Virus record (IMG/VR): IMGVR_UViG_2913177423_000001
Span: 19,415 to 83,414 of that record
Source of the DNA: a virus
Lineage: Duplodnaviria > Heunggongvirae > Uroviricota > Caudoviricetes
DNA: 64,000 nt
Direction: 5' to 3' (one strand)
The notes below the pieces were generated by a model. It was given only the letters and a program-made list of their open reading frames with translations. It was not told where the DNA came from and ran no database searches. A program made the translations under genes and the position numbers. Position 1 is the stretch's first letter, and each line of letters begins with the position of its first letter. This document shows, piece after piece, positions 8,028 to 43,513 of the stretch.

Positions 8028-9388
8028 GCCTGGTTAATTGGGAAGAGCACCGCGCCAAATTTATAGCGTTGCGTGAAGAAAAAGGGATCACCGTAAAGGA
8101 ATACTGCGAGCAACACGACCTTAGCTTCAATACCGCCAGAAAGCATCTCAATATGAAAAAAAATGAGGTGCGGTCGCAGGTGAAGACTACAAAAAAAAGC
8201 ACCAAATCACCTGAAAAAAAACGGGCAGGAAGAGCAAAAAAAAGGCCAGAAGAGGGTACAGAAACAACAAAATTTACAGAAACTGACAATTCACAGAGCG
8301 GAAGTTCTTTCCGGAGCATGCCGAGAAAGAAAACTTCGGATCATAAAAATAACGACAATAATAACAATGAGATAAAAGAATCTGTCAGGAGATCATTGCG
8401 CGAAAAAATGGCGAAAATGATCCCCGCCGAAGATAAATGCGCCTCAAAAACCGAGGGATCTTCAGCAATGATCCCTGGCGGTGCTGTGCAGCGTGCCACG
8501 TTGCCCACTACGAGTGTGGCTCGCGACATGATGAAGAACGGCGCAGAAGAGCACCTGCGGTTAGCAATTCAAATGGCGCAAGAACGCGCACTTCAGTACC
8601 AAAGCATTGTTGATCAGGAGGCCGAACGCCTACAGGCGGAGATAGACGCCCTGGGTGATGAACAGCCAGAAGGAATGCACCCTGGGCAGCGACTTCTCGG
8701 TCTAATCAGTGACGCGGCCTACTACATGAACGATTTTATCAGTAGGTTGGCAGCGATATATCAGTCCGAACAAAAGCTGCGACAGGGTGATGAAAAACTT
8801 CGTCAGGGTGCTCGCCAGCAAGCATTCAGAGAGGCCGAGGCCAGAGAAAAACTCGAATTAGCACGCCTACAGGCCGAACAGCGCGGCAAAGAGATTGAAT
8901 ATCGAATTGGCGCTGACGCACGCGCAGCCAGAGTTATCGCCGCCGCTATACGTATGCGTGAGCGCGAGGAACTGGACGATATCGGTGTTGCTGAATACAT
9001 CGAGCGTCAGGGTGTCAGTGTCCCGGCTATCCTCGCGGCGCGCGCGGCAAAAGCTATCGATCTTCTCGAACCGCCAGTTTCTGACATCAATGATGTTGAT
9101 GATGAACAGCTGGACAAAGAGGCAAGGGAGTATGCATTGCTTCAGGCAAACCATTCTCAATGGCTGGCAGAGCGCCGGGCAGATGTGGCTACCATTGTTG
9201 AAGACCTGGGGTGCGGAGATTACGACAGCAATGGCGAGCGTAAGGCTGGGGAATTCGAGGCCAACGACGAAGAGTTAGATATTGACCCTTCGGCAACGGC
9301 TGAAATTTACGGTGATTATGATGCATCAGACGTAGGGTATGACGCCGGAGATGATGATATCGCGATAGAACCTCCGGAGGACGATTAA
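8024..9388 (+). CDS. pacA: terminase small subunit (PacA-like, N-terminal HTH DNA-binding)
   Basis: 454-aa ORF coupled to large terminase (stop/start overlap at 9388); N-terminal HTH-like segment, acidic C-terminus. Confidence 0.65.
   Translation: MSLVNWEEHRAKFIALREEKGITVKEYCEQHDLSFNTARKHLNMKKNEVRSQVKTTKKSTKSPEKKRAGRAKKRPEEGTETTKFTETDNSQSGSSFRSMPRKKTSDHKNNDNNNNEIKESVRRSLREKMAKMIPAEDKCASKTEGSSAMIPGGAVQRATLPTTSVARDMMKNGAEEHLRLAIQMAQERALQYQSIVDQEAERLQAEIDALGDEQPEGMHPGQRLLGLISDAAYYMNDFISRLAAIYQSEQKLRQGDEKLRQGARQQAFREAEAREKLELARLQAEQRGKEIEYRIGADARAARVIAAAIRMREREELDDIGVAEYIERQGVSVPAILAARAAKAIDLLEPPVSDINDVDDEQLDKEAREYALLQANHSQWLAERRADVATIVEDLGCGDYDSNGERKAGEFEANDEELDIDPSATAEIYGDYDASDVGYDAGDDDIAIEPPEDD
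8339..8473. promoter_or_regulatory. candidate pac (packaging initiation) site: cluster of five GATC sites
   Basis: GATC at 8339, 8391, 8419, 8457, 8470 within 135 bp inside pacA-like gene; P1 pac is a Dam-site cluster within pacA. Confidence 0.35.
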
Positions 9389-10896
9389 TGGCTGGCGGGC
9401 GCAAGATTAAATGCGTCACCAGCGATCCACGCTGGCGCGATTGGGTAATCAAATACCGCTACAACTTTACCAAGGCTGTTATTGATATTTTTGGATTGTT
9501 TCCCTCACCTCAGCAGCAGGAGATTATCCAGTCCGTACAGCAAAAAGGGAGCAGAACCACTGTTACCTCTGGTCACGGTACAGGGAAATCGTCGTTAACG
9601 GCTATGTTGTTGCTGATTTATTTGATTCTGTTCCCCGATGCCCGTGTCATCATTGTTGCTAACAAGATAGGCCAGGTTAAAACAGGCGTATTCAAATACG
9701 TTAAACAGTATTGGGCGAATGCAGTTAAGCGTCACGGGTGGTTACAGACCTATTTTGTCCTGTCTGACACCATGTTTTATGAACGTTCCCGCAAAGGGAT
9801 CTGGGAAGTTCTCTGCAAAGGTTATCGACTCGGTAACGAAGAAGCACTGGCGGGGGAGCACGCGGCACATTTGCTTCTAATTCTGGATGAAGCATCAGGT
9901 ATATCTGATAAAGCGATCGGCGTAATGACTGGCGCTCTGACTGAAGAAGATAACCGAATGTTGATGCTATCCCAGCCAACAAGGCCAAGTGGTTATTTCT
10001 ACGATTCGCACCATTCTCAAGCTAAAACCCCAGACAACCCGAAAGGGATCTGGACAGCAATTGTTCTTAACTCAGAAGAATCACCGTTCGTCACACCACA
10101 ATTCATCAGGCAGAAACTCCTGGAATATGGCGGTCGCGATTCTATTGAGTACATGGTTAAGGTGCTTGGTCAGTTCCCTCGGGAGATTAACGGCTATTTG
10201 CTTGGTCGTGATGAATGCGATCGCGCAGCGCGGCGCAAGGTGTTGTTGGAGAAAAACTGGGGATGGGTGGCAACAGCTGACGTTGGTAACGGGCGAGACA
10301 AGTCAGTTCTTAATATCTGTAAAGTGTCTGGTCACCGGGAAAAGCGGCGTGTTGTTAACTTTAAGATAATGGAAATGCCAGGGACTATGGACCCGCTGGC
10401 TTTTGCTGACTTTATATACAACGAATGCACGCCGGATAAATACCCGAATATTACAATCGCGGTTGACGCTGATGGTTTTGGTTCAGATACCTGTGCGCAG
10501 TTGGTGCGCCGTGGTGCTAATCCGGTACGTATTCGGTGGGGGAAACCCATGTTTTCGAACAAAGACAAGGAGCGTTTTGTTAACCAGCGTGCCTACGCAA
10601 ATATTATGGCTCGTGATGCCATAAAGTCAGGCCGTATGCGTATAGACAGTGACCCTAAAACGGCAGAGCAAGCGTCAAAAATCCCTTTTTTACTGAATGA
10701 AGAAGGGAAGATGGCGATGATGCGCAAAGAGCACATGCGGCAAAAGCTAAACATCAAATCGCCTGACCGATGGGATACCTACTGCTTCACTATGCTGGTG
10801 GACTATGTGCCTGCAAATGAAGATATCGGTGCGGAAATGGCTACCTTCCGCGACCAGGTTCTTGCAGACATAGAAATGCCGGATCTGGATATATAA
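9388..10896 (+). CDS. pacB: terminase large subunit (PacB-like)
   Basis: Walker A GHGTGKSS, Walker B LLLILDEASG, C-terminal nuclease-like AVDADGFG. Confidence 0.85.
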   Translation: MAGGRKIKCVTSDPRWRDWVIKYRYNFTKAVIDIFGLFPSPQQQEIIQSVQQKGSRTTVTSGHGTGKSSLTAMLLLIYLILFPDARVIIVANKIGQVKTGVFKYVKQYWANAVKRHGWLQTYFVLSDTMFYERSRKGIWEVLCKGYRLGNEEALAGEHAAHLLLILDEASGISDKAIGVMTGALTEEDNRMLMLSQPTRPSGYFYDSHHSQAKTPDNPKGIWTAIVLNSEESPFVTPQFIRQKLLEYGGRDSIEYMVKVLGQFPREINGYLLGRDECDRAARRKVLLEKNWGWVATADVGNGRDKSVLNICKVSGHREKRRVVNFKIMEMPGTMDPLAFADFIYNECTPDKYPNITIAVDADGFGSDTCAQLVRRGANPVRIRWGKPMFSNKDKERFVNQRAYANIMARDAIKSGRMRIDSDPKTAEQASKIPFLLNEEGKMAMMRKEHMRQKLNIKSPDRWDTYCFTMLVDYVPANEDIGAEMATFRDQVLADIEMPDLDI

Positions 10897-35669: not shown

Positions 35670-36433
35670 TGTCAAACAATACCCTCCTGGCGCGGATCGG
35701 CGAATGGCAGACAACACGCACAGGGAAATTCCAGACTACTGGCCTTGAGAGCGTGGATAACGCGTTCGCTTCGCTCATTAGCAACATTTTTTCAGATATC
35801 TTGCTGGTGGAACCTACGCGAGAAGAAAAGCGTTTTGCATCGTTTCTGAATCGCCCACCAGCCGAACGTGTTTACGTGGCTCGTTTCGATAATGCTATTG
35901 AGTTTCTTAAAGCCGTGCGCCGCGCAAATGCCGGGCAAGGAAGAAAACCGGAAAACCAGAACATTAATCGCGATGCCTTGCCGTTGATCAACATCTCCCG
36001 GTCTATGGATATCAGCTATATCAATGATGATCAGCAGATAGACCGCAGGCAAACTGCCAGTTTTTGCAACCCGGATACTGGAATGCCTTTAGCGACTCTG
36101 GAATACACCCAGGCTATCCTGACTTATGACGTTACGTTAATGGCTACTGATAAAGCAACCATGAGTCTGATGTGTAATTCGCTGGGCGCGCGGCTCCGCC
36201 TGATGACCGGAACACAATTTGAGGCAAACACTAACCTGGTGCGTGTTCCTGTTCCTCTGATTTGCTCCATTCAGGATGCTAAAGACGTTGGATTTACGGA
36301 TGTTTCGGCACCCGTGGGAGAAGAGAGGATTTATGCTACTCAGGCACCTGTAAGCGTCATTGCGGATGTAATCACAGCCTGGGAATTGGACGCGAAACGC
36401 GTTGTTACTGAAACCTCGCTGGCTATGGGGTAA
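35669..36433 (+). CDS. hypothetical protein (254 aa), probable virion/baseplate-associated
   Basis: start overlaps upstream stop; precedes spike-like gene. Confidence 0.5.
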   Translation: MSNNTLLARIGEWQTTRTGKFQTTGLESVDNAFASLISNIFSDILLVEPTREEKRFASFLNRPPAERVYVARFDNAIEFLKAVRRANAGQGRKPENQNINRDALPLINISRSMDISYINDDQQIDRRQTASFCNPDTGMPLATLEYTQAILTYDVTLMATDKATMSLMCNSLGARLRLMTGTQFEANTNLVRVPVPLICSIQDAKDVGFTDVSAPVGEERIYATQAPVSVIADVITAWELDAKRVVTETSLAMG

Positions 36434-36436
36434 TCA

Positions 36437-37417
36437 ATGTCCCAGGAGTTACAACAATACTTCCTCCAGTCAGTCACAATTAACGATAACAAAGTGCCAC
36501 GAGACTGGATTTTTACCGCAGTGTACGTGGAAAAGAGCAGCCTTAAAGCGCCGTTATTGAAGCTGGAAATTCATGACATGACAGGCACCATAATTGATGA
36601 CTGGAAAGCTAAATACGGTGCATCGCTGGTGGCTGAAATGGGCGATCCAAACGGTAATGCTGGCACTTTTAAAACAACTTTTTTTGTTACGTCAGCAATG
36701 CTGGCTGGGGATGTAGTTACCGTTATTGCGGTCAGTGAAGACGTGCATCGGTTTAAGATCCCCTCCCCTCGCACCAATCTACACACGAACAAAACGCCGG
36801 ACACCATATTCAAGGCGTATAGCGGCAATCTTAAAATTTCCAGCAGTGTCCTAAAGCGTGCGGTTACATATCACCTGAACGCAGGCGACAAGCCGTCAAA
36901 AATGCTCTCAGAGATAGCACGCGACAAAGGTGCATTGTGTTGGGTCTGCCGGGGAGAATTTAACTTTTACACCCTGGCTGATCTGATGAAGCAAACTCCA
37001 TCCTTCACCTACGAAGGTAATAATCCACAAGCGAAATACACCTTGTCAAAAATGCGCATGATTCAACAGGAACATGCGACAACAGCAAAGAATCAGTACC
37101 GTTTTGTGGGCTATTCCATGACTGATGGTTATATCGAATATGGCGATAGTTCCCTGCCTGTACGTTACATATCCGATTCCGATATGGAAACTCTTCGCAA
37201 TATGCAGCTGTCTCTCGTCCCCAAAATGGATATAGAAGTTGCAGGCAATCCGGATATAAAGCCAGGAATGCTGATAGAGATTCTTGTATACCGTTATGAT
37301 CAAGAAAACCGTATCGATGAATCAATGCCACGTAAGCTCATAGTGAAAAACGTCGCTCACTTTGAAGATCGTATAGGCTACACAACCAGAATGATATTAG
37401 GAGTGCCAAATAAGTGA
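36437..37417 (+). CDS. hypothetical protein (326 aa), probable baseplate component
   Basis: coupled to downstream spike-like gene (4-nt overlap). Confidence 0.5.
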   Translation: MSQELQQYFLQSVTINDNKVPRDWIFTAVYVEKSSLKAPLLKLEIHDMTGTIIDDWKAKYGASLVAEMGDPNGNAGTFKTTFFVTSAMLAGDVVTVIAVSEDVHRFKIPSPRTNLHTNKTPDTIFKAYSGNLKISSSVLKRAVTYHLNAGDKPSKMLSEIARDKGALCWVCRGEFNFYTLADLMKQTPSFTYEGNNPQAKYTLSKMRMIQQEHATTAKNQYRFVGYSMTDGYIEYGDSSLPVRYISDSDMETLRNMQLSLVPKMDIEVAGNPDIKPGMLIEILVYRYDQENRIDESMPRKLIVKNVAHFEDRIGYTTRMILGVPNK

Positions 37418-38067
37418 AGCGTAGAGCGCAGATAGTAGGAACCGAACACCCGGCAGGACTCATGCGCGCTCAGGTTCGAATTTTACCTGACTGGAATGGA
37501 GTTCCCGACGATGATCTCCCCTGGGCAGAATACCAGTTACCCATAGGTAACGCGTTTGTACCTACAGTAAAAGGCGACCTGGTATGGGTAGAGTTTCCTT
37601 ATCTGGATGTTAATGGTCGAATTGATACCAGACGCCCAATGATAGTTGGCGCGGCTCAGGATGCGCCTGGTGGAGTACCAAACGTCGCGCCGGAGGCGTC
37701 AGGCAATGGTAGCGGCTGGACGCCACCTGAAGTAGACGGAGCGCCTCCCCGCCCGCAATTTTCGGCGACAAAAGATTTCGTTATTCACCGCAACAATGTG
37801 CTCGAAGTGCGAACGGTTGGCGGTGGATATGAAATAGCGAATACGGCAGCAGGCTCAAGGATAGGAATGAATGAATCAGGGCAGATATACATCATTGGCC
37901 CGGCTGATGTAGTAGTGAATGCGGGAGGGAGTGTTAACGTCAAATCAGCCGATAACATCAGCGTTAATGGCAAAAACATTTCTGTGACAGCCGACGAAAA
38001 TATTGATTTCAAGGCAGGAGGCACCTTCCAGGCTATCGCAAGCAACTTTGATTTCAAGAAGGGATAG
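37414..38067 (+). CDS. baseplate central spike protein (gpV-like OB-fold)
   Basis: N-terminal GDLVWVEFPYLDVNGRIDTRRP resembles P2 gpV-type spike; Gly-rich C-terminus. Confidence 0.5.
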   Translation: MKRRAQIVGTEHPAGLMRAQVRILPDWNGVPDDDLPWAEYQLPIGNAFVPTVKGDLVWVEFPYLDVNGRIDTRRPMIVGAAQDAPGGVPNVAPEASGNGSGWTPPEVDGAPPRPQFSATKDFVIHRNNVLEVRTVGGGYEIANTAAGSRIGMNESGQIYIIGPADVVVNAGGSVNVKSADNISVNGKNISVTADENIDFKAGGTFQAIASNFDFKKG

Positions 38068-38076
38068 AAAACACAT

Positions 38077-38120
38077 CCAATTGTGTTAGATAATTGAATA
38101 GAATTTTCTAACACAATTGG
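38077..38120. promoter_or_regulatory. perfect palindromic double operator (CCAATTGTGTTAGA ... TCTAACACAATTGG)
   Basis: 14-bp perfect inverted termini enclosing two motif copies, ending 7 nt before rdgC-homolog ATG. Confidence 0.6.
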
Positions 38121-38126
38121 TGAAAC

Positions 38127-39032
38127 ATGAGATCTGTCGCTTTCAAAAACATCTTCATCTATCGTCTTTCACGTGAAGTTAACTGGAGTGCCGCAGAAGT
38201 ATCCGATGCTCTTAGCAAATTCGTGTTTACTCCTTGCGGTTCTCAGGACACAGCTAAAGTCGGTTGGACACCTGTTCTTGGTGACAACCTCACCCATGAA
38301 TACCAGGGTTTTCTGCTAATACAGCATAAGCGAGAAGAAAAAATTCTCCCTTCGCAGGTGCTCAAGGAAGAGTTGCAGAAAAAAGTCCTGAAACTCGAAG
38401 AAGAGCAAGCACGCAAGCTGAAGAAAACGGAAAGAGACAGTCTTAAAGATGAAGTCCTGCATTCCCTTTTGCCTCGCGCGTTCACGAGAAAATCACTCGC
38501 CAAAATCCTGATCGACCGCAGCAACCATCTGGTATTCGTTGAGGCAAGCAGCGCCAAAAAGGCAGAGGATCAGCTGGCTTTATTGCGAAAATCGCTCGGC
38601 AGCCTGCCCGTCATTCCATTCACACCACGCGAACCGCTGGAAATCACAATGACCGAGTGGTTTAAAAACGGCTTCCCTGCCGGATTCACAGCAGGTGAAG
38701 ATGCCACATTAAAGGCTCTGTTTGATGATGGTGGTGCCGTTCGCTGCAACAAAGTTGATCTACAGTCCGACGAGATTATGTCTCACATTGAGGCGGGGAA
38801 AGTAGCTACGACCGTTGCAATTAACTGGATGGACCGCGCGTCGTTCAGAGTAAACGATGATATGAGTATCAAAGCCCTGACATTCTGTGATGATCTCTAT
38901 GACCAGAATGACGATATCGACCGGGAGGATGTAGCACAACGATTTGATGCTGATTTCGTGCTCTTTACGGGCGAATTATCTGCACTGTTTAACGCGCTGG
39001 TGGAGGCCATTGGCGGTGAAGCAGAACGATAA
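38127..39032 (+). CDS. hrdC: recombination-associated protein RdgC homolog
   Basis: near-colinear match to E. coli RdgC ([59 protein letters not shown]). Confidence 0.85.
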
Positions 39033-39048
39033 TAACCGACCGCTTGTT

Positions 39049-39696
39049 GTGAGTGTGTGTGATTTTACGGGGGGAATGGTTGCCCCCTGGCTGGAATACG
39101 GTGTCGATGCCGCTATCGTCGATCCACAGCACTTATCGACCAGTGACGAGCTGATGCAATCAGGTGCCGTTCTGACGCGTATTAGTGCGATCATCGATAG
39201 CGATGAAGTATACGCTTTTCTCCGTAAGAATTTGCAGCGCATCGTGTTTCTGGCCGGGTTCCCACCGTGTACTGACCTGGCTGTTTCCGGCGCGCGCTGG
39301 TTTTCGGACAAGGCTAATAAAGATCCGGTCTTCCAGTTCAAAGCAATGCAGGTTGTCTGGCAGTGTTATGACATTGCAAAGATGATCGGTTGTCCGTACA
39401 TGATTGAAAATCCGGTCAGCAAAATATCGACATTCTGGCGTAAGCCAGATCACATCTTTCACCCTTACTTCTTCACTGCATATTGTCAGGAAGATAACTA
39501 CACCAAAAAAACATGCCTCTGGAGCGGCCAGGGCTTTGTCATGCCTGATGCCCTAATGGACGAATCATTAGGCAAGCCAGATAACAGAATCCATGCCGCG
39601 CCACCAGGGCCTGACAGGGCTAATTTTAGAAGTGCTACTCCACATGGATTCGCAAAGGCAGTTTTCGAAGCGAATAAGGGGGTGCTCTATGAGTAA
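39049..39696 (+). CDS. putative DNA (cytosine-5) methyltransferase-like protein (short)
   Basis: motifs CDFTGG, FPPC (PC-motif) and IENP (ENV-like); GTG start inferred. Confidence 0.5.
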   Translation: MSVCDFTGGMVAPWLEYGVDAAIVDPQHLSTSDELMQSGAVLTRISAIIDSDEVYAFLRKNLQRIVFLAGFPPCTDLAVSGARWFSDKANKDPVFQFKAMQVVWQCYDIAKMIGCPYMIENPVSKISTFWRKPDHIFHPYFFTAYCQEDNYTKKTCLWSGQGFVMPDALMDESLGKPDNRIHAAPPGPDRANFRSATPHGFAKAVFEANKGVLYE

Positions 39697-40594
39697 ATCT
39701 ATAGCAAGCATAGCCATAGAAAAACGGGATACGATGGCTGAAATTAGCTATATGCGCACCATTCGGACTCCGGATGAATATGAGCGTCCGATCTTCAAAT
39801 GGGTAGGTGGTAAATTCTCAGAATTGCCTACAGTGCTTGAGCATCTACCACACGGCAAGCGGTTAATAGAACCGTTCGTTGGTGGCGGTTCCGTATTTAC
39901 GAATGCAGGATTTCGCCACAACCTGCTTAATGATATTAACGGTGACCTGATTAACTTCTATCAGACATTGCAGCGGGAAGGACATTCGCTCGTCACGCTG
40001 TCATATAGTTTTTTCAAAAATTACAACAACGCTGACGCTTACCTCGAAGTGCGTGAGGCATTTAACAGAGGAAAGTATGACCAGCTACATCATGCTGCCG
40101 CCTTTTTGTACCTTAATCGGCACTGTTTTAATGGCGTAACACGGTACAACCAAAATGGCGATTTCAACGTGGGGTATGGCAAATACAAAGCGCCCTACTT
40201 CCCACATGCAGAGATGGAGGCGTTTTTGGCTGATGACGTACTCAAAAACACATCCTTTGTATCAGGTGACTTTGCTGGCGTCATCGAGGCGGCTGGTGAA
40301 GACGATGTGATTTTTTGCGATCCGCCGTATGAACCGCTGCCGGATACAGAGGGATTTACCAGCTATTCAGGAAATAGCTTCCGTTTCGATGAACAAAAAA
40401 GGCTTGTATCACTGTTGGTGGCTGCCCACCAGCGCGGCGCGAAGGTAGTGATAACAAACAGTGGCGCGCCCAAAATTCGCGAATTGTACGAAAGAAACGG
40501 TTTTAAGCTGTACCACATGCCAGCCAGACGGTCCGTGTCATGCAAAGCATCCACGCGAATAGTCGCTAACGATATCATTGCAACGCTCAAATAG
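39689..40594 (+). CDS. dam: DNA N6-adenine methyltransferase (Dam family)
   Basis: KWVGGK motif and catalytic DPPY; ATG overlapping upstream stop. Confidence 0.8.
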   Translation: MSKSIASIAIEKRDTMAEISYMRTIRTPDEYERPIFKWVGGKFSELPTVLEHLPHGKRLIEPFVGGGSVFTNAGFRHNLLNDINGDLINFYQTLQREGHSLVTLSYSFFKNYNNADAYLEVREAFNRGKYDQLHHAAAFLYLNRHCFNGVTRYNQNGDFNVGYGKYKAPYFPHAEMEAFLADDVLKNTSFVSGDFAGVIEAAGEDDVIFCDPPYEPLPDTEGFTSYSGNSFRFDEQKRLVSLLVAAHQRGAKVVITNSGAPKIRELYERNGFKLYHMPARRSVSCKASTRIVANDIIATLK

Positions 40595-40618
40595 AAAAAG
40601 CCCCAGGCGGGGCTTTTG
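40595..40618 (+). terminator. intrinsic terminator
   Basis: hairpin AAAAGCCCC-AGGC-GGGGCTTTT. Confidence 0.65.
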
Positions 40619-40661
40619 ATGCCGATACAGTGTCAATTTGATATCAATATGGTTGTATATT

Positions 40662-40720
40662 AACACCATTACGGCACCACTTTGACACCATTATTGCACC
40701 GGTACATGATAGACACCAAT
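40662..40720. repeat. centromere-like iterons (11-bp periodic (A/G)CACCA repeats), downstream cluster
   Basis: ACACCATTAC GGCACCACTTT GACACCATTAT TGCACC ... Confidence 0.5.
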
Positions 40721-40737
40721 GAGGCATCAAATCGGTA

Positions 40738-41022
40738 TCATTTTGCATCCTCTGACTCAGCAAGCATGAGGATGGCATGTCGAATCAGGTTCAATTTGCT
40801 GCGGTTAAGCTTTTTGCTTAACGCATCGAGCACCCCGTACTCATATTCATTAAAGCTCACGCGTATGGATTTAAAGTCACGCGGCGCATCTTTATCTGGA
40901 GTTTGAGTTGCAGCCTCAACGCCCGGCACCAAATCGGCTTTAATGGCGAACTCTTCAATGCGGCGCTCTAGTTCAGGGTCTTTTACAGCTTGTGCATTCA
41001 CTGGCTCACGGCGCTTAATCAC
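40738..41022 (-). CDS. ParG-like small centromere-binding protein (putative ribbon-helix-helix)
   Basis: 94-aa ORF coupled downstream of ParA (4-nt overlap). Confidence 0.5.
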   Translation of the reverse strand: MIKRREPVNAQAVKDPELERRIEEFAIKADLVPGVEAATQTPDKDAPRDFKSIRVSFNEYEYGVLDALSKKLNRSKLNLIRHAILMLAESEDAK

Positions 41023-41651
41023 GATAACAACTCCTTAATCAACATCTGGATCTCGCCCTTTGCTTTCCCGTTGTCCATTTCAACAACACCCTTCCCTTCT
41101 GCCATGCAGTCACGATAAATCTTACGGTCACGGACGACAGTTTTCAGGAGTTCAAGTTGCGGGTATTCAGCAAGATATTCCCTTGCCTCATTGGCTTCGT
41201 TAACGACCGGGTTGGATGGTGCCATAGTCAGCATGGCATACGCCTTAAGTTTAGGGTTGAAATCCATCGCCTCAGCTATAACCTCAACAAGGTGCGGTAG
41301 AGTATCCAGATCCGGCTGGGAAGGACGGAACGGCACCAGAAGCACATCTGCCGCTGTCATGCCTGTACGCATCTCACGACTGTCGCGACCAGCAGTATCG
41401 ACGACAACGTACTCGTAACGTTTATCCAGATCGAGCAGCGTCTCACGAATATTATCGAACTTCTGCACGCAGTGAATGACAGGGGCAACCTCACCTGCAT
41501 TACGGTCTGACGCCCATCGAGCTGCCGTTCCCTGTTTATCAGCATCAATCAAGACGACATCTTTGTTTTTTCGGGCCAGCTCGGCACAAATATTGACGCT
41601 GGTGGTTGACTTGCCACAGCCTCCCTTTTGACTTGCTACCAGGATAATCAT
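41019..41651 (-). CDS. parA: ParA/ParF-type partition ATPase (small Walker-type)
   Basis: deviant Walker A KGGCGKST; 210 aa. Confidence 0.85.
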   Translation of the reverse strand: MIILVASQKGGCGKSTTSVNICAELARKNKDVVLIDADKQGTAARWASDRNAGEVAPVIHCVQKFDNIRETLLDLDKRYEYVVVDTAGRDSREMRTGMTAADVLLVPFRPSQPDLDTLPHLVEVIAEAMDFNPKLKAYAMLTMAPSNPVVNEANEAREYLAEYPQLELLKTVVRDRKIYRDCMAEGKGVVEMDNGKAKGEIQMLIKELLS

Positions 41652-41714
41652 GTCCGCACCTCGGCTTTATTACGGCTCTATTTTCACACTAAAACAGTAC
41701 CGATTTAACACATC

Positions 41715-41882
41715 AACGGTACAGCAATAGCACCATTCTTAATGCCAGGAGTATAACATCAAATCCGATGGATACTGGTACACGTTTTGCGCCTGAATAG
41801 CACTAAATTAGCACCAAATATGCACCAGTACATTAACAACACCAATTCGGCGTTGTTTTGGTGCCACTTCAACACCATTTTG
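41715..41882. repeat. centromere-like iterons ((A/G)CACCA at about 11-bp spacing), upstream cluster
   Basis: about 8 copies between parA start and parR-like stop. Confidence 0.5.
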
Positions 41883-41940
41883 ACACCAAAACTGAACAAA
41901 AAAGGCTGCAATTTGCAGCCTTAAGATAGTGTATGAACCG

Positions 41941-42285
41941 TCAATCAGGTAGAGAGTCAGCCAGATTGCGCGCCGACGCGCTTTTGGCAACAACTTGCTC
42001 CTTCACTGGCTCAATGGAGGCAGGTCGCTCTTCAACCGCAGCAGGTAGTTCCAGGAAGGACGCCAGCATTTTTCGGATCAGATCCGGGTTATTGTCTTCG
42101 GTTAGCAGGGAAGCCAGTAATCCTGGAAGCCTGCTATCGACTTCTCCCAGCGCAAGCCCTGCCAACAATGCAGTTCTTGCCATATCGCTATGTTTTTTTA
42201 TCTTCTCGCTCGCCGCCTTTTCATTGGCATAAGCCTCTGGGCGAAGATAAATCATCACTTTCTTACGTTCCTGAGACATGGACAT
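41941..42285 (-). CDS. ParR/StbB-like partition adaptor
   Basis: 114-aa ORF immediately downstream of ParM-like gene; followed by minus-strand terminator hairpin. Confidence 0.45.
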   Translation of the reverse strand: MSMSQERKKVMIYLRPEAYANEKAASEKIKKHSDMARTALLAGLALGEVDSRLPGLLASLLTEDNNPDLIRKMLASFLELPAAVEERPASIEPVKEQVVAKSASARNLADSLPD

Positions 42286-42291
42286 ACCTCG

Positions 42292-43248
42292 TTAACCGAT
42301 TGCTTTCAGGCCATGAACAAGAGCAAGTTGCGGGTCATCCGCCACGAAGAAACGGTCATCGCGAATATTAACTTGCTCGCGAATTGCATCAGCCACCAGT
42401 GGTGCGCCGCCACCGATCACCATGACATGCGTATATCCTTTAAAGTCGCCAATCACATCAAGAACGCGGGTACGCAGACGGTCAATACTTGCAGCAATGG
42501 CCTTTTTCACATCACCAATAGCTGATGGGTCATTGATATTGTCGTTCAGATAATCTTCATCGTGGCGGTTAATAATGAGCTGATCGACATTGTAATTTGA
42601 CGTTTCGGTATTGGCTCTGGCAAGTGCTTGCCTTACTTCCCTGGTAACCAGAGAGACGCCAAGATTCGAATCGCCAAAAACACGGGAAACTGCCGTCATT
42701 TGCCCGGCGACCATTGAAACATCAAGGGTAGTTCCACCCAAATCGACGATAAGAACAGAGTGGGCAGGGTTCAGATTGTCGCACAGGCCAATTCCTGCCG
42801 GAATAGACTCCGGGCGTACCGTAACTTTCTTAATCGTGAACACATTGCCTTTATTCAGCGTGACGGGGCGCATAAGGCTGGCTTTTTTGCGCTCGATGTT
42901 ATCGAGATTGTATTGCGCGTCGTCGTCGTAAAACTCCGCCAGAGGCAGCGTGACCACGATTTCTACTTCCTGCGGCTCAATGCCACTGGTCAGCAAAGCA
43001 TGGTGAACAGCCAGGACGTTAAGCGGGCTGTATTGCCATTCCACGTTATTCGTCGGCAGAACATCTGGCGAGATCAAATCATACGAATACTTTTCGTCGT
43101 CAATGACATAGTTAAACGGCTTGCCAGCACCAAATGTTGCGGACCAGCCGCGCTTAAAGCTGTTAGGACTGATGTGCGTGCGAGTTTCCCCGTCGTGTTC
43201 CCACAGCATTTTGATATTTGTTGAACCATCGTCGATAAAAATGCGCAT
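42292..43248 (-). CDS. parM: ParM/StbA-type actin-like partition ATPase
   Basis: MRIFIDDGSTNIK phosphate-1 motif, LIVDLGGTTLD phosphate-2, VMVIGGGA adenosine motif. Confidence 0.8.
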   Translation of the reverse strand: MRIFIDDGSTNIKMLWEHDGETRTHISPNSFKRGWSATFGAGKPFNYVIDDEKYSYDLISPDVLPTNNVEWQYSPLNVLAVHHALLTSGIEPQEVEIVVTLPLAEFYDDDAQYNLDNIERKKASLMRPVTLNKGNVFTIKKVTVRPESIPAGIGLCDNLNPAHSVLIVDLGGTTLDVSMVAGQMTAVSRVFGDSNLGVSLVTREVRQALARANTETSNYNVDQLIINRHDEDYLNDNINDPSAIGDVKKAIAASIDRLRTRVLDVIGDFKGYTHVMVIGGGAPLVADAIREQVNIRDDRFFVADDPQLALVHGLKAIG

Positions 43249-43269
43249 CTTCTTGCTCCACTTCTGAGA

Positions 43270-43435
43270 CACATTTGAGAATCAAATCATGATTTTAAAA
43301 GAGAAGGAATCGAAAATCCACACAATTCGAGATGAAAGAGAGTCGTTATTGAGATTATTTTGAGAATATCTTTAACCACTTTCTGGGTTTGATGCAAAGG
43401 TGAGAACAATTCGAGAATAAAACGAGAATTTTAAA
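43270..43435. repeat. parC-like centromere iterons (TTGAGAAT / TCGAGAAT repeats)
   Basis: about 8 copies of GAGA(A/T)T-core repeat upstream of parM-like gene. Confidence 0.5.
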
Positions 43436-43513
43436 TATTTCGTGATTTCACTCTCTCTTTGAGTGACGAAATAACAAAGTGATGACAATAGGCGAATAAC
43501 CAGGAGATGAAGA

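What the first reader, a model, noticed from the sequence alone, without database searches (positions are those of the whole stretch)
39049..40594. Cytosine-methylase-like and Dam methylase as separate overlapping genes
After the rdgC homolog there is a short C5-methylase-like ORF (FPPC and IENP motifs) overlapping by 8 nt a full Dam-family ORF (DPPY) in a different frame. In P1 the methylase at this position (dmt) is, as I recall, one bifunctional protein. The split could be a genuine two-gene arrangement or a frameshifted fusion.
Basis: partly seen in the sequence, partly recalled or inferred. Interest (0 to 1): 0.4.

Follow-up and report, generated by a model that had tools for sequence, protein, structure and literature searches.

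The report
Separate cytosine and adenine methylase genes
This D6-like phage-plasmid carries a small cytosine-methylase-like gene and a Dam adenine-methylase gene as two real, overlapping genes, an arrangement already annotated in phage D6 and not a broken copy of P1's fused methylase.

Summary
ORF1 runs to 39696, most likely from GTG 39016. It carries FPPC and IENP. It overlaps a 301-aa Dam ORF (39689-40594, DPPY) by 8 nt (ATGAGTAA).

The window is a D6-like phage-plasmid. Phage D6 is annotated with the same two genes (orf64, orf63). The split is genuine, not a frameshift:
- It recurs in D6, 89 complete E. coli plasmids and 15 IMG/VR contigs.
- It persists in relatives at 75% nt identity and 62-75% aa identity, with overlaps of 8, 19 or 4 nt.
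- Each gene has its own Shine-Dalgarno sequence.
- Both are under purifying selection (ORF1 dN/dS 0.06).

ORF1 is not a detached P1 Dmt C5 domain. It shows no similarity to Dmt and has no Pfam hit. It is a full-length member of a large family of 190-250-aa phage "Dcm-like" proteins (phrog_757). One member (37% identical) is reported to make 5mC and trigger retron Ec86, and ORF1 keeps its four mutated residues.

Other D6-like plasmids carry a P1-type fused Dmt in the same slot. Homology to the window begins in the inter-domain linker, so this is a cassette swap. PGAP mislabels the split Dam as a pseudogene.

Ordinary and already known; low interest.

The parts
38077..38120 (+). Conserved stem-loop or palindrome (CCAATTGTGTTAG-N18-CTAACACAATTGG) just upstream of rdgC. 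It may regulate the rdgC-dcm-dam operon; this is inferred only.
   Evidence: The 13-bp arms are perfect. The element is conserved in four D6-like relatives, with 5 pairs showing compensatory changes. It overlaps a promoter-like site at 38065-38094.
38127..39032 (+). rdgC/hrdC homologue, first gene of the operon.
   Evidence: PF04381 RdgC at 3.1e-103. D6 orf65 is annotated 'similar to P1 hrdC'.
39002..39006 (+). Shine-Dalgarno GGAGG for ORF1, 9 nt before GTG 39016.
   Evidence: Read directly from the sequence. It is identical in D6, L005 and L004.
39016..39696 (+). Motifs: CDFTGG 39058-39075, DPQH 39121-39132, FPPC 39259-39270, IENP 39403-39414, TKKT 39502-39513, RSATP 39628-39642.
39676..39682 (+). 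Shine-Dalgarno AAGGGGG for ORF2, inside the 3' end of ORF1 and 6 nt before ATG 39689.
   Evidence: The 75%-identical relative L004 has AAGGAGG before a GTG start at the equivalent place.
39689..39696 (+). Start/stop overlap ATGAGTAA (ORF2 ATG, ORF1 TAA), the junction for translational coupling.
   Evidence: The exact junction is present in 15 IMG/VR contigs. Relatives have GTGGCTGA (8 nt), a 19-nt overlap and a 4-nt overlap.
39689..40594 (+). ORF2: Dam-family N6-adenine DNA methyltransferase, 301 aa (FVGGG 39875-39889, DPPY 40319-40330). Residues 1-~30 resemble the Dmt linker. Nucleotide homology with fused-Dmt plasmids begins at about 39762.
   Evidence: PF02086 at 5.9e-56 and TIGR00571 at 1.6e-73. 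68% identity to P1 Dmt residues 478-753. 92% identity to the Dam half of the fused Dmt of pHX138.33gt_1. Breakpoint from the alignment.
40596..40617 (.). GC-rich hairpin terminator between the convergent dam gene and the minus-strand genes.
   Evidence: and the sequence.

Best explanation
This is a three-gene operon, rdgC - dcm-like - dam, in a D6-like phage-plasmid. The genes overlap (17 nt, then 8 nt) and each downstream gene has a Shine-Dalgarno sequence inside the end of the preceding gene. The two methylases are therefore made as separate proteins by coupled translation; that step is inferred from the anatomy.

ORF2 is an orphan Dam-type enzyme that most likely methylates GATC. That is inferred from 68% identity to the Dam half of P1 Dmt. 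In P1, Dam methylation of pac is needed for packaging, and it also protects against GATC-sensitive restriction.

ORF1 is a complete member of the small phage 'Dcm-like' family. These proteins have a C5-methyltransferase catalytic core with a PC cysteine and an ENx glutamate, and no conventional target-recognition domain. ORF1 most likely makes 5-methylcytosine on phage or host DNA as an anti-restriction mark. Its target site is unknown; CCWGG was proposed for a 37%-identical homologue.

The locus is the two-gene counterpart of P1's fused Dmt. D6-like plasmids carry either the small dcm-like gene plus a stand-alone dam, or a P1-type PF00145 domain fused to the same Dam. The exchange point lies in the inter-domain linker.
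For: - Arrangement and motifs.
- 89 of 100 matching complete E. coli plasmids cover the whole locus, annotated as rdgC, hypothetical protein and DNA adenine methylase.
- Exact junction in 15 IMG/VR contigs.
- The 75%-identical relative keeps both ORFs, an AAGGAGG Shine-Dalgarno and an 8-nt GTGGCTGA overlap.
- 62% and 75% aa relatives keep RdgC-ORF1-Dam with 19-nt and 4-nt overlaps.
- Purifying selection: ORF1 dN/dS 0.064 (97 synonymous against 54 non-synonymous differences); ORF2 pN/pS 0.20.
- ORF1 family: phrog_757 at 2e-75; 1589 phage records; about 6000 proteins of 206-258 aa; invariant FPPCT, ENP and RSATP.
- Predicted fold closest to DNMT3A/B, M.HhaI and other C5 MTases.
- 37% identity to KarlJaspers Dcm-like. 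Its near-identical K42 orthologue gave 5mC on retron Ec86 msDNA by LC-MS. A C82A/E128A/K175A/K176A mutant served as the catalytic-mutant control (bioRxiv 10.1101/2023.08.16.553469). All four residues align with ORF1's FPPC, IENP and TKKT.
- Dam.
- P1 Dam role at pac: PMC12707154 and the P1 annotation.
- Fused alternative in the same slot, with the breakpoint in the linker.
Against: - No methylation data exist for this element.
- ORF1 has no Pfam or NCBIfam hit and no HMM or hhalign link to canonical C5 MTases.
- Motif I deviates (CDFTGG rather than FxGxG), and motif VIII's RxR is replaced by KK.
- The only biochemical evidence for the family is one preprint, on a homologue that is 37% identical.
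- PGAP calls the Dam ORF a pseudogene, although this appears to be an artefact.
- Translational coupling and the ORF1 start codon are inferred, not shown.
Confidence: 0.85

Rival explanations
1. Frameshifted fusion: ORF1 and ORF2 were one bifunctional gene, as in P1 dmt, split here by an indel or a sequencing error near 39680-39700.
For: The ORF2 frame is open from 39593, so a +1 shift anywhere in 39593-39696 would join the two ORFs. P1 and some D6-like plasmids have a fused C5-Dam protein at this position.
Against: The same junction occurs in D6, 89 complete plasmids and 15 IMG/VR contigs. Relatives at 75% nt identity and 62-75% aa identity keep two ORFs, with different overlap sequences and lengths. 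A strong Shine-Dalgarno precedes the ORF2 start in both the window and the divergent relative. ORF1 homologues are stand-alone proteins of the same length in more than 1500 phages. ORF1 is unrelated in sequence to the Dmt C5 domain.
Confidence: 0.03
2. The Dam ORF is a decaying remnant of a fused Dmt that lost its N-terminal half. This is the PGAP view: 'incomplete; missing N-terminus', pseudogene.
For: PGAP flags it as a pseudogene in L004 and L005. The first ~30 residues of ORF2 resemble the Dmt linker.
Against: ORF2 covers the whole Dam model (TIGR00571 positions 2-265 of 267). It has its own Shine-Dalgarno and start codon. It shows purifying selection across saturated synonymous divergence (pN/pS 0.20, 76% aa identity against pS 0.77). 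Related contigs carry ordinary 270-284-aa Dam genes in the same place.
Confidence: 0.05
3. ORF1 is not a DNA 5mC methyltransferase. It would be a C5-MTase-fold protein with another activity or substrate (a different cofactor or modification, ssDNA, RNA or nucleotides) or a non-catalytic partner.
Against: The catalytic Cys, the ENx Glu and the KK pair are invariant in the 40-sequence alignment. They correspond to the residues mutated in the K42 Dcm catalytic-mutant control. Wild-type K42 Dcm gave 5mC on msDNA by LC-MS. Variable insertions sit exactly where a TRD would be (alignment columns 207-241). The smallest-TRD enzymes, DNMT3A/B, are the best structural matches.
Confidence: 0.15
4. Programmed +1 ribosomal frameshifting at the overlap yields a fused ORF1-Dam protein alongside the two separate products.
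For: An AGGGGG Shine-Dalgarno-like element lies upstream of the ORF1 stop, superficially like prfB. ORF2 is in the +1 frame.
Against: There is no slippery codon before the stop (GAG TAA). The Shine-Dalgarno-to-stop spacing is 11 nt, against 3 nt to the shift codon in prfB as I recall it; no tool result checked the prfB value. The junction sequence is not conserved in L004, L010 or L012.
Confidence: 0.02

Closest known systems
Escherichia phage D6 orf64 (putative DNA-cytosine methylase) and orf63 (site-specific DNA-adenine methylase), MF356679
   Same: Same genes, order, overlaps and neighbours (rdgC upstream). ORF1 is 98% and ORF2 96% identical at the protein level.
   Different: D6 has a glutaminyl-tRNA synthetase gene right after dam, and the window does not. 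ORF1 is 99% nt identical to D6, but the flanking rdgC and dam are only 92-94% identical.
Phage P1 Dmt (bifunctional C5/N6 DNA methyltransferase, 754 aa)
   Same: Same position after hrdC/rdgC and the same order, with the cytosine-type module before the Dam module. The Dam halves are 68% identical.
   Different: P1 has one polypeptide. Its C5 half is a canonical ~470-aa PF00145 domain with a TRD, and it has no detectable sequence similarity to ORF1. The P1 operon has a C1 operator. No P1 C1 operator consensus occurs in the window.
Dcm of Drexlerviridae phage KarlJaspers (Bas06_0055) and its K42 orthologue, trigger of retron Ec86
   Same: Same family (phrog_757). Identity is 37% over the full length, size is similar (236 against 226 aa), and C82, E128, K175 and K176 are conserved.
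   Different: In KarlJaspers the gene is a solitary gene of a lytic phage, 6 kb from the phage's Dam gene and on the other strand. It has a 14-residue insertion before the KK motif. Whether target specificity is shared is unknown.
Fused Dmt of D6-like plasmids such as pHX138.33gt_1 (762 aa)
   Same: Same plasmid backbone and slot. Its Dam domain is 92% identical to ORF2.
   Different: It has a P1-like PF00145 domain fused in frame in place of the separate small ORF1. Nucleotide homology to the window starts only at about 39762.

Membership tests
Dam family / D12-class N6-adenine DNA methyltransferase (ORF2) | Match to PF02086 and TIGR00571 above the curated cut-offs, over the full length | tested here: met
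   PF02086 scores 190.5 bits (cut-off 22). TIGR00571 scores 247.7 bits (cut-off 114.85) over positions 2-265 of 267.
Dam family / D12-class N6-adenine DNA methyltransferase (ORF2) | SAM-binding FxGxG motif and catalytic DPPY motif | tested here: met
   FVGGG lies at 39875-39889 and DPPY at 40319-40330.
Dam family / D12-class N6-adenine DNA methyltransferase (ORF2) | m6A formation at GATC | not testable with these tools
   Inferred from 68% identity to the Dam half of P1 Dmt, which is annotated as methylating GATC. The E. coli Dam equivalog model NF008152 scores 237.6, below its cut-off of 441.
Canonical C5-cytosine DNA methyltransferase, PF00145 (ORF1) | Match to the PF00145 profile | tested here: not met
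   No hit at E<=1 for ORF1, nor at E<=10 for any of 40 family members. The hhalign comparison with a P1-Dmt/Dcm profile gave probability 0.2. PDB HMM searches were empty.
Canonical C5-cytosine DNA methyltransferase, PF00145 (ORF1) | Motif IV Pro-Cys nucleophile and motif VI ENV glutamate, in that order | tested here: met
   GFPPCTD and IENPV are present. F, P, P, C, T and E, N, P are invariant in 40 sequences.
Canonical C5-cytosine DNA methyltransferase, PF00145 (ORF1) | Motif I FxGxG and motif VIII QxRxR | tested here: inconclusive
   Motif I reads CDFTGG (family consensus LCDLTGxM). The motif VIII position carries YTKKT in place of RxR.
Canonical C5-cytosine DNA methyltransferase, PF00145 (ORF1) | Sizeable target-recognition domain between motifs VIII and IX | tested here: not met
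   Only about 40 mostly coil residues separate TKKT from RSATP. A few relatives have a 28-residue insertion at that spot.
Canonical C5-cytosine DNA methyltransferase, PF00145 (ORF1) | Class I SAM-MTase fold closest to the C5 MTase catalytic domain | tested here: met
Small phage Dcm-like methyltransferases (phrog_757; K42/KarlJaspers Dcm) | Profile match and full-length similarity to the studied member | tested here: met
   phrog_757 at 2e-75 for ORF1 and 6e-86 for bas06_0055. BLASTP gives 37% identity and E 3e-40 over residues 10-220.
Small phage Dcm-like methyltransferases (phrog_757; K42/KarlJaspers Dcm) | Conservation of C82, E128, K175 and K176, the residues mutated in the Dcm catalytic-mutant control | tested here: met
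   All four align with the C of FPPC, the E of IENP and the KK of TKKT.
Small phage Dcm-like methyltransferases (phrog_757; K42/KarlJaspers Dcm) | 5-methylcytosine formation in DNA | not testable with these tools
   Shown only for the K42 homologue, by LC-MS, in a preprint.
P1 Dmt-type bifunctional fusion | One ORF containing both a C5 MTase domain and a Dam domain | tested here: not met
   There are two ORFs in different frames. Reading through the ORF1 frame meets 28 stops. The split is conserved in relatives.

The most novel reading that the evidence does not exclude
Two unrelated-in-sequence cytosine-methylase modules recur next to the same Dam gene in P1/D6 phage-plasmids. One is fused and the other is translationally coupled. 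This could reflect a functional need for the two enzymes to be made together, or to act as a complex. The TRD-less ORF1 protein would then rely on Dam for DNA targeting, or have an unconventional specificity. In effect the bifunctional Dmt would be re-created in trans.
Probability: 0.12. Interest if true: 0.5.

Novelty: already known. Interest (0 to 1): 0.18.

Why it matters
The matter is mostly one of annotation hygiene. The two-gene module is genuine and was already described for phage D6.

Three practical points follow:
1. RefSeq/PGAP systematically labels this intact Dam gene a pseudogene. It also starts ORF1 at an internal ATG, which removes a conserved motif.
2. ORF1's family has more than 6000 members across phages and prophages but no Pfam or NCBIfam model, so it is usually called 'hypothetical'.
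3. D6-like phage-plasmids, common in E. coli and Salmonella, probably encode both a Dcm-like and a Dam methylase. The Ec86 preprint reports a phage Dcm as a retron trigger and cites earlier work on phage Dam as one. This bears on their host range and on interpreting host methylomes.

Tried and rejected
- Pfam and NCBIfam scans of ORF1, and Pfam scans of 40 family members, found nothing.
- Single-sequence and profile HMM searches of PDB sequences gave only noise.
- hhalign of the ORF1 family against a shallow P1-Dmt/E. coli Dcm profile gave probability 0.2. Both profiles have low diversity, so this is a weak negative.
- BLASTP of ORF1 against P1 Dmt gave E=3.
- A prfB-like programmed +1 frameshift was considered because of the AGGGGG element. 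I rejected it because there is no slippery codon, the spacing is wrong, and the junction is not conserved.
- The P1 C1 operator consensus has no match in the window at up to 3 mismatches.
- An exact-junction scan of genome contigs found nothing; that collection holds one genome per species.
- An Rfam scan of 36000-43500 gave only a chance hit.
- The D6 genome paper (PMC5800970) and the P1 genome paper (PMC523184) are not held. What those authors concluded is therefore taken only from their GenBank annotations.
- CCWGG and GATC counts show no avoidance of either site. They say nothing about ORF1's target specificity.

Full report
**What is there**

The window is a D6-like phage-plasmid. The region 38100-40700 is 94.8% identical to Escherichia phage D6. 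It is up to 98.8% identical to E. coli and Salmonella plasmids of about 90 kb.

The local genes, all on the + strand, are:
- rdgC/hrdC at 38127-39032 (PF04381, 3e-103).
- ORF1, ending at TAA 39694-39696.
- ORF2, from ATG 39689 to 40594.

The 8-nt overlap is ATGAGTAA. ORF1 carries FPPC (39259-39270) and IENP (39403-39414). ORF2 carries FVGGG (39875-39889) and DPPY (40319-40330).

One correction concerns the ORF1 start. It is more likely GTG 39016 than GTG 39049:
- It has GGAGG 9 nt upstream.
- It is the start used for D6 orf64.
- It overlaps rdgC by 17 nt.

PGAP's choice of ATG 39076 removes the conserved RPLVVS(L/V)CD(F/Y)TG segment. That segment is in frame and conserved in every relative examined.

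**ORF2 is a complete Dam**

- PF02086 scores 5.9e-56.
- TIGR00571 scores 1.6e-73 and covers positions 2-265 of 267.
- ORF2 is 68% identical to residues 478-753 of P1 Dmt.

Dmt is a single 754-aa protein annotated as bifunctional. PF00145 (C5) occupies the N-terminal half and PF02086 the C-terminal half, and the gene lies directly after hrdC.

**ORF1 is not the detached C5 half of Dmt**

- BLASTP against Dmt gives E=3.
- No Pfam or NCBIfam model matches ORF1 or any of 40 homologues.
- PDB sequence searches are empty.
- A profile-profile comparison with a P1-Dmt/E. coli Dcm alignment is negative. Both profiles were shallow, so this is a weak negative.

ORF1 instead matches phrog_757, 'DNA methyltransferase', at 2e-75. 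It has tblastn hits in 1589 phage records. About 6000 proteins in the large collection match it, and the best 120 listed are 179-305 aa, mostly 206-258 aa. Nearly all of those listed are stand-alone and unnamed.

The 40-sequence alignment shows invariant DPQH, GFPPCT, ENP, D-Y-K-T-W and R-N-RSATP-GF blocks. Only about 40 residues lie where canonical C5 enzymes carry their target-recognition domain. Occasional insertions fall exactly at that place.

An AlphaFold model (pLDDT 86.9, pTM 0.86) is closest to C5 methyltransferase catalytic domains:
- Foldseek: DNMT3A and DNMT3B at E about 1e-2.

**Experimental anchor for the ORF1 family**

The BASEL phage KarlJaspers carries a 711-bp 'Dcm-like C5 cytosine methyltransferase' gene, bas06_0055. 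It is a phrog_757 member and is 37% identical to ORF1 over the full length (E 3e-40).

A preprint (10.1101/2023.08.16.553469) studied the 711-bp dcm of phage K42, whose genome is 95.4% identical to KarlJaspers. It reports:
- Escape mutants of retron Ec86 map to this gene.
- Expressing the gene is toxic only when Ec86 is present.
- 5mC was assayed in Ec86 msDNA by LC-MS, and the authors conclude that Dcm methylates it.
- A C82A/E128A/K175A/K176A mutant served as the catalytic-mutant control in these assays.

In the pairwise alignment these four residues correspond to the C of FPPC, the E of IENP and the KK of TKKT in ORF1. ORF1 is therefore most likely an active cytosine-C5 methyltransferase. 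Its target site is untested.

**Split or broken?**

Five lines of evidence favour a genuine two-gene arrangement.

1. D6 itself is annotated with the two genes. The annotation notes that orf63 is 'similar to C-term half of P1 dmt only'.
2. The arrangement recurs widely. In complete E. coli genomes, 100 plasmids match and 89 cover the whole locus, always as rdgC, hypothetical protein and adenine methylase. The exact junction also occurs in 15 IMG/VR contigs.
3. Divergent relatives keep it.
   - A relative at about 75-78% nt identity (p98198, L004) keeps both ORFs. It has a different 8-nt overlap (GTGGCTGA) and an AAGGAGG Shine-Dalgarno.
   - Phage-plasmid-like contigs whose ORF1 homologues are 75% and 62% identical keep RdgC-ORF1-Dam, with 4-nt and 19-nt overlaps.
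4. The window's ORF2 start has AAGGGGG 6 nt upstream.
5. Selection is purifying.
   - ORF1 against L004 has 97 synonymous and 54 non-synonymous differences, giving dN/dS 0.064.
   - ORF2 has pN/pS 0.20, with synonymous sites saturated.

A sequencing error or a recent frameshift is excluded. I also considered a prfB-like programmed +1 frameshift. I rejected it because there is no slippery codon and the junction is not conserved.

**Relation to the fused form**

About a tenth of the matching E. coli plasmids match only from window position ~39764 onward. One of them is pHX138.33gt_1, which has the same D6-like backbone. In the same slot it carries a single 762-aa gene with PF00145 plus PF02086.
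- Its C5 domain closely matches P1's; the whole protein is 84% identical to P1 Dmt.
- Its Dam domain is 92% identical to ORF2.
- Nucleotide homology with the window begins at about 39762, in the linker and about 25 codons into ORF2.
- The first ~30 residues of ORF2 weakly resemble that linker.

The split and fused forms are therefore alternative cassettes exchanged upstream of a shared Dam module. This also explains why PGAP marks the stand-alone Dam as 'incomplete; missing N-terminus'. I judge that an artefact of comparison with the longer fused proteins.

**How it most likely works**

- Shown: two intact, conserved, overlapping genes, each with its own ribosome-binding site, directly downstream of rdgC and ending at a hairpin terminator at 40596-40617.
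- Inferred: co-transcription and coupled translation.
- Inferred: ORF2 methylates GATC, as the P1 Dam domain does.
- Inferred: ORF1 makes 5mC at an unknown site, with both marks acting as orphan modifications that evade restriction.

In P1, Dam methylation of pac is required for packaging (review PMC12707154). The only GATC cluster in the window is 5 sites in 135 bp at 8339-8473. It lies inside the PacA-like small terminase gene. This is suggestive of a pac site, but the clustering alone is not statistically compelling. Neither CCWGG (172 observed against 94±8 expected) nor GATC (216 against 245±13) is avoided.

**Verdict**

The 'two genuine genes' alternative is supported and the 'frameshifted fusion' alternative is refuted. 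The arrangement is already annotated in phage D6, and both proteins belong to known kinds. Interest is low.

The residual novelty lies in three places:
- the poorly characterised, TRD-less Dcm-like family;
- the recurrent pairing of a cytosine methylase, of either kind, with Dam in P1/D6 elements;
- systematic RefSeq mis-annotation of this locus.

Noticed in passing
window 38077-38120: A 13-bp perfect inverted repeat (CCAATTGTGTTAG-N18-CTAACACAATTGG) lies between the baseplate gene and the rdgC start. It overlaps a promoter-like site. It is conserved in four D6-like relatives, with 5 stem pairs showing compensatory changes, and it is absent upstream of P1 hrdC. It has no Rfam match. It could be an RNA stem-loop or an operator for the rdgC-dcm-dam operon.
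   Followed up: partly
window 8339-8473 (inside ORF 8024-9388): The only GATC cluster in the 64-kb window (5 sites in 135 bp) lies within the terminase small-subunit (PacA-like) gene (phrog_1711, 1.6e-174). This is reminiscent of the Dam-regulated pac site inside P1 pacA. The hexamers are not the P1 TGATCA/G type.
   Followed up: partly
L004 3289-4107 and L005 3256-4095 (RefSeq plasmids NZ_CP173569.1, NZ_CP115379.1); window 39076: PGAP annotates the intact stand-alone Dam as a pseudogene ('missing N-terminus'). It also starts the ORF1 homologue at an internal ATG, which cuts off the conserved LCDxTG motif. This looks like a systematic annotation artefact across D6-like plasmids.
   Followed up: yes
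window 40594-41022 compared with L001 (D6) 8541-10202: Phage D6 carries a glutaminyl-tRNA synthetase gene (orf62) immediately downstream of dam. The window and several related plasmids lack it. There, dam is followed directly by a terminator and the convergent hypothetical/ParA-like genes.
   Followed up: no
P0121 and P0216 (homologues of the P1 Dmt N-terminal half): A stand-alone 473-aa C5 methyltransferase, 99% identical to the N-terminal half of P1 Dmt, is a cluster of 123 sequences. P1-type dmt therefore also occurs split or truncated. A 740-aa variant has LAGLIDADG and Hint Pfam hits, which suggests an intein inside the C5 domain.
   Followed up: no
window 38127-40594 compared with L001: Identity to D6 is mosaic. 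ORF1 is 99.1% nt identical, but the flanking rdgC (92.0%) and dam (93.8%) are much less so. This suggests recent exchange of the ORF1 segment.
   Followed up: no
whole window: CCWGG is about 1.8-fold over-represented relative to dinucleotide shuffles (172 against 94±8). GATC is slightly under-represented (216 against 245±13).
   Followed up: no
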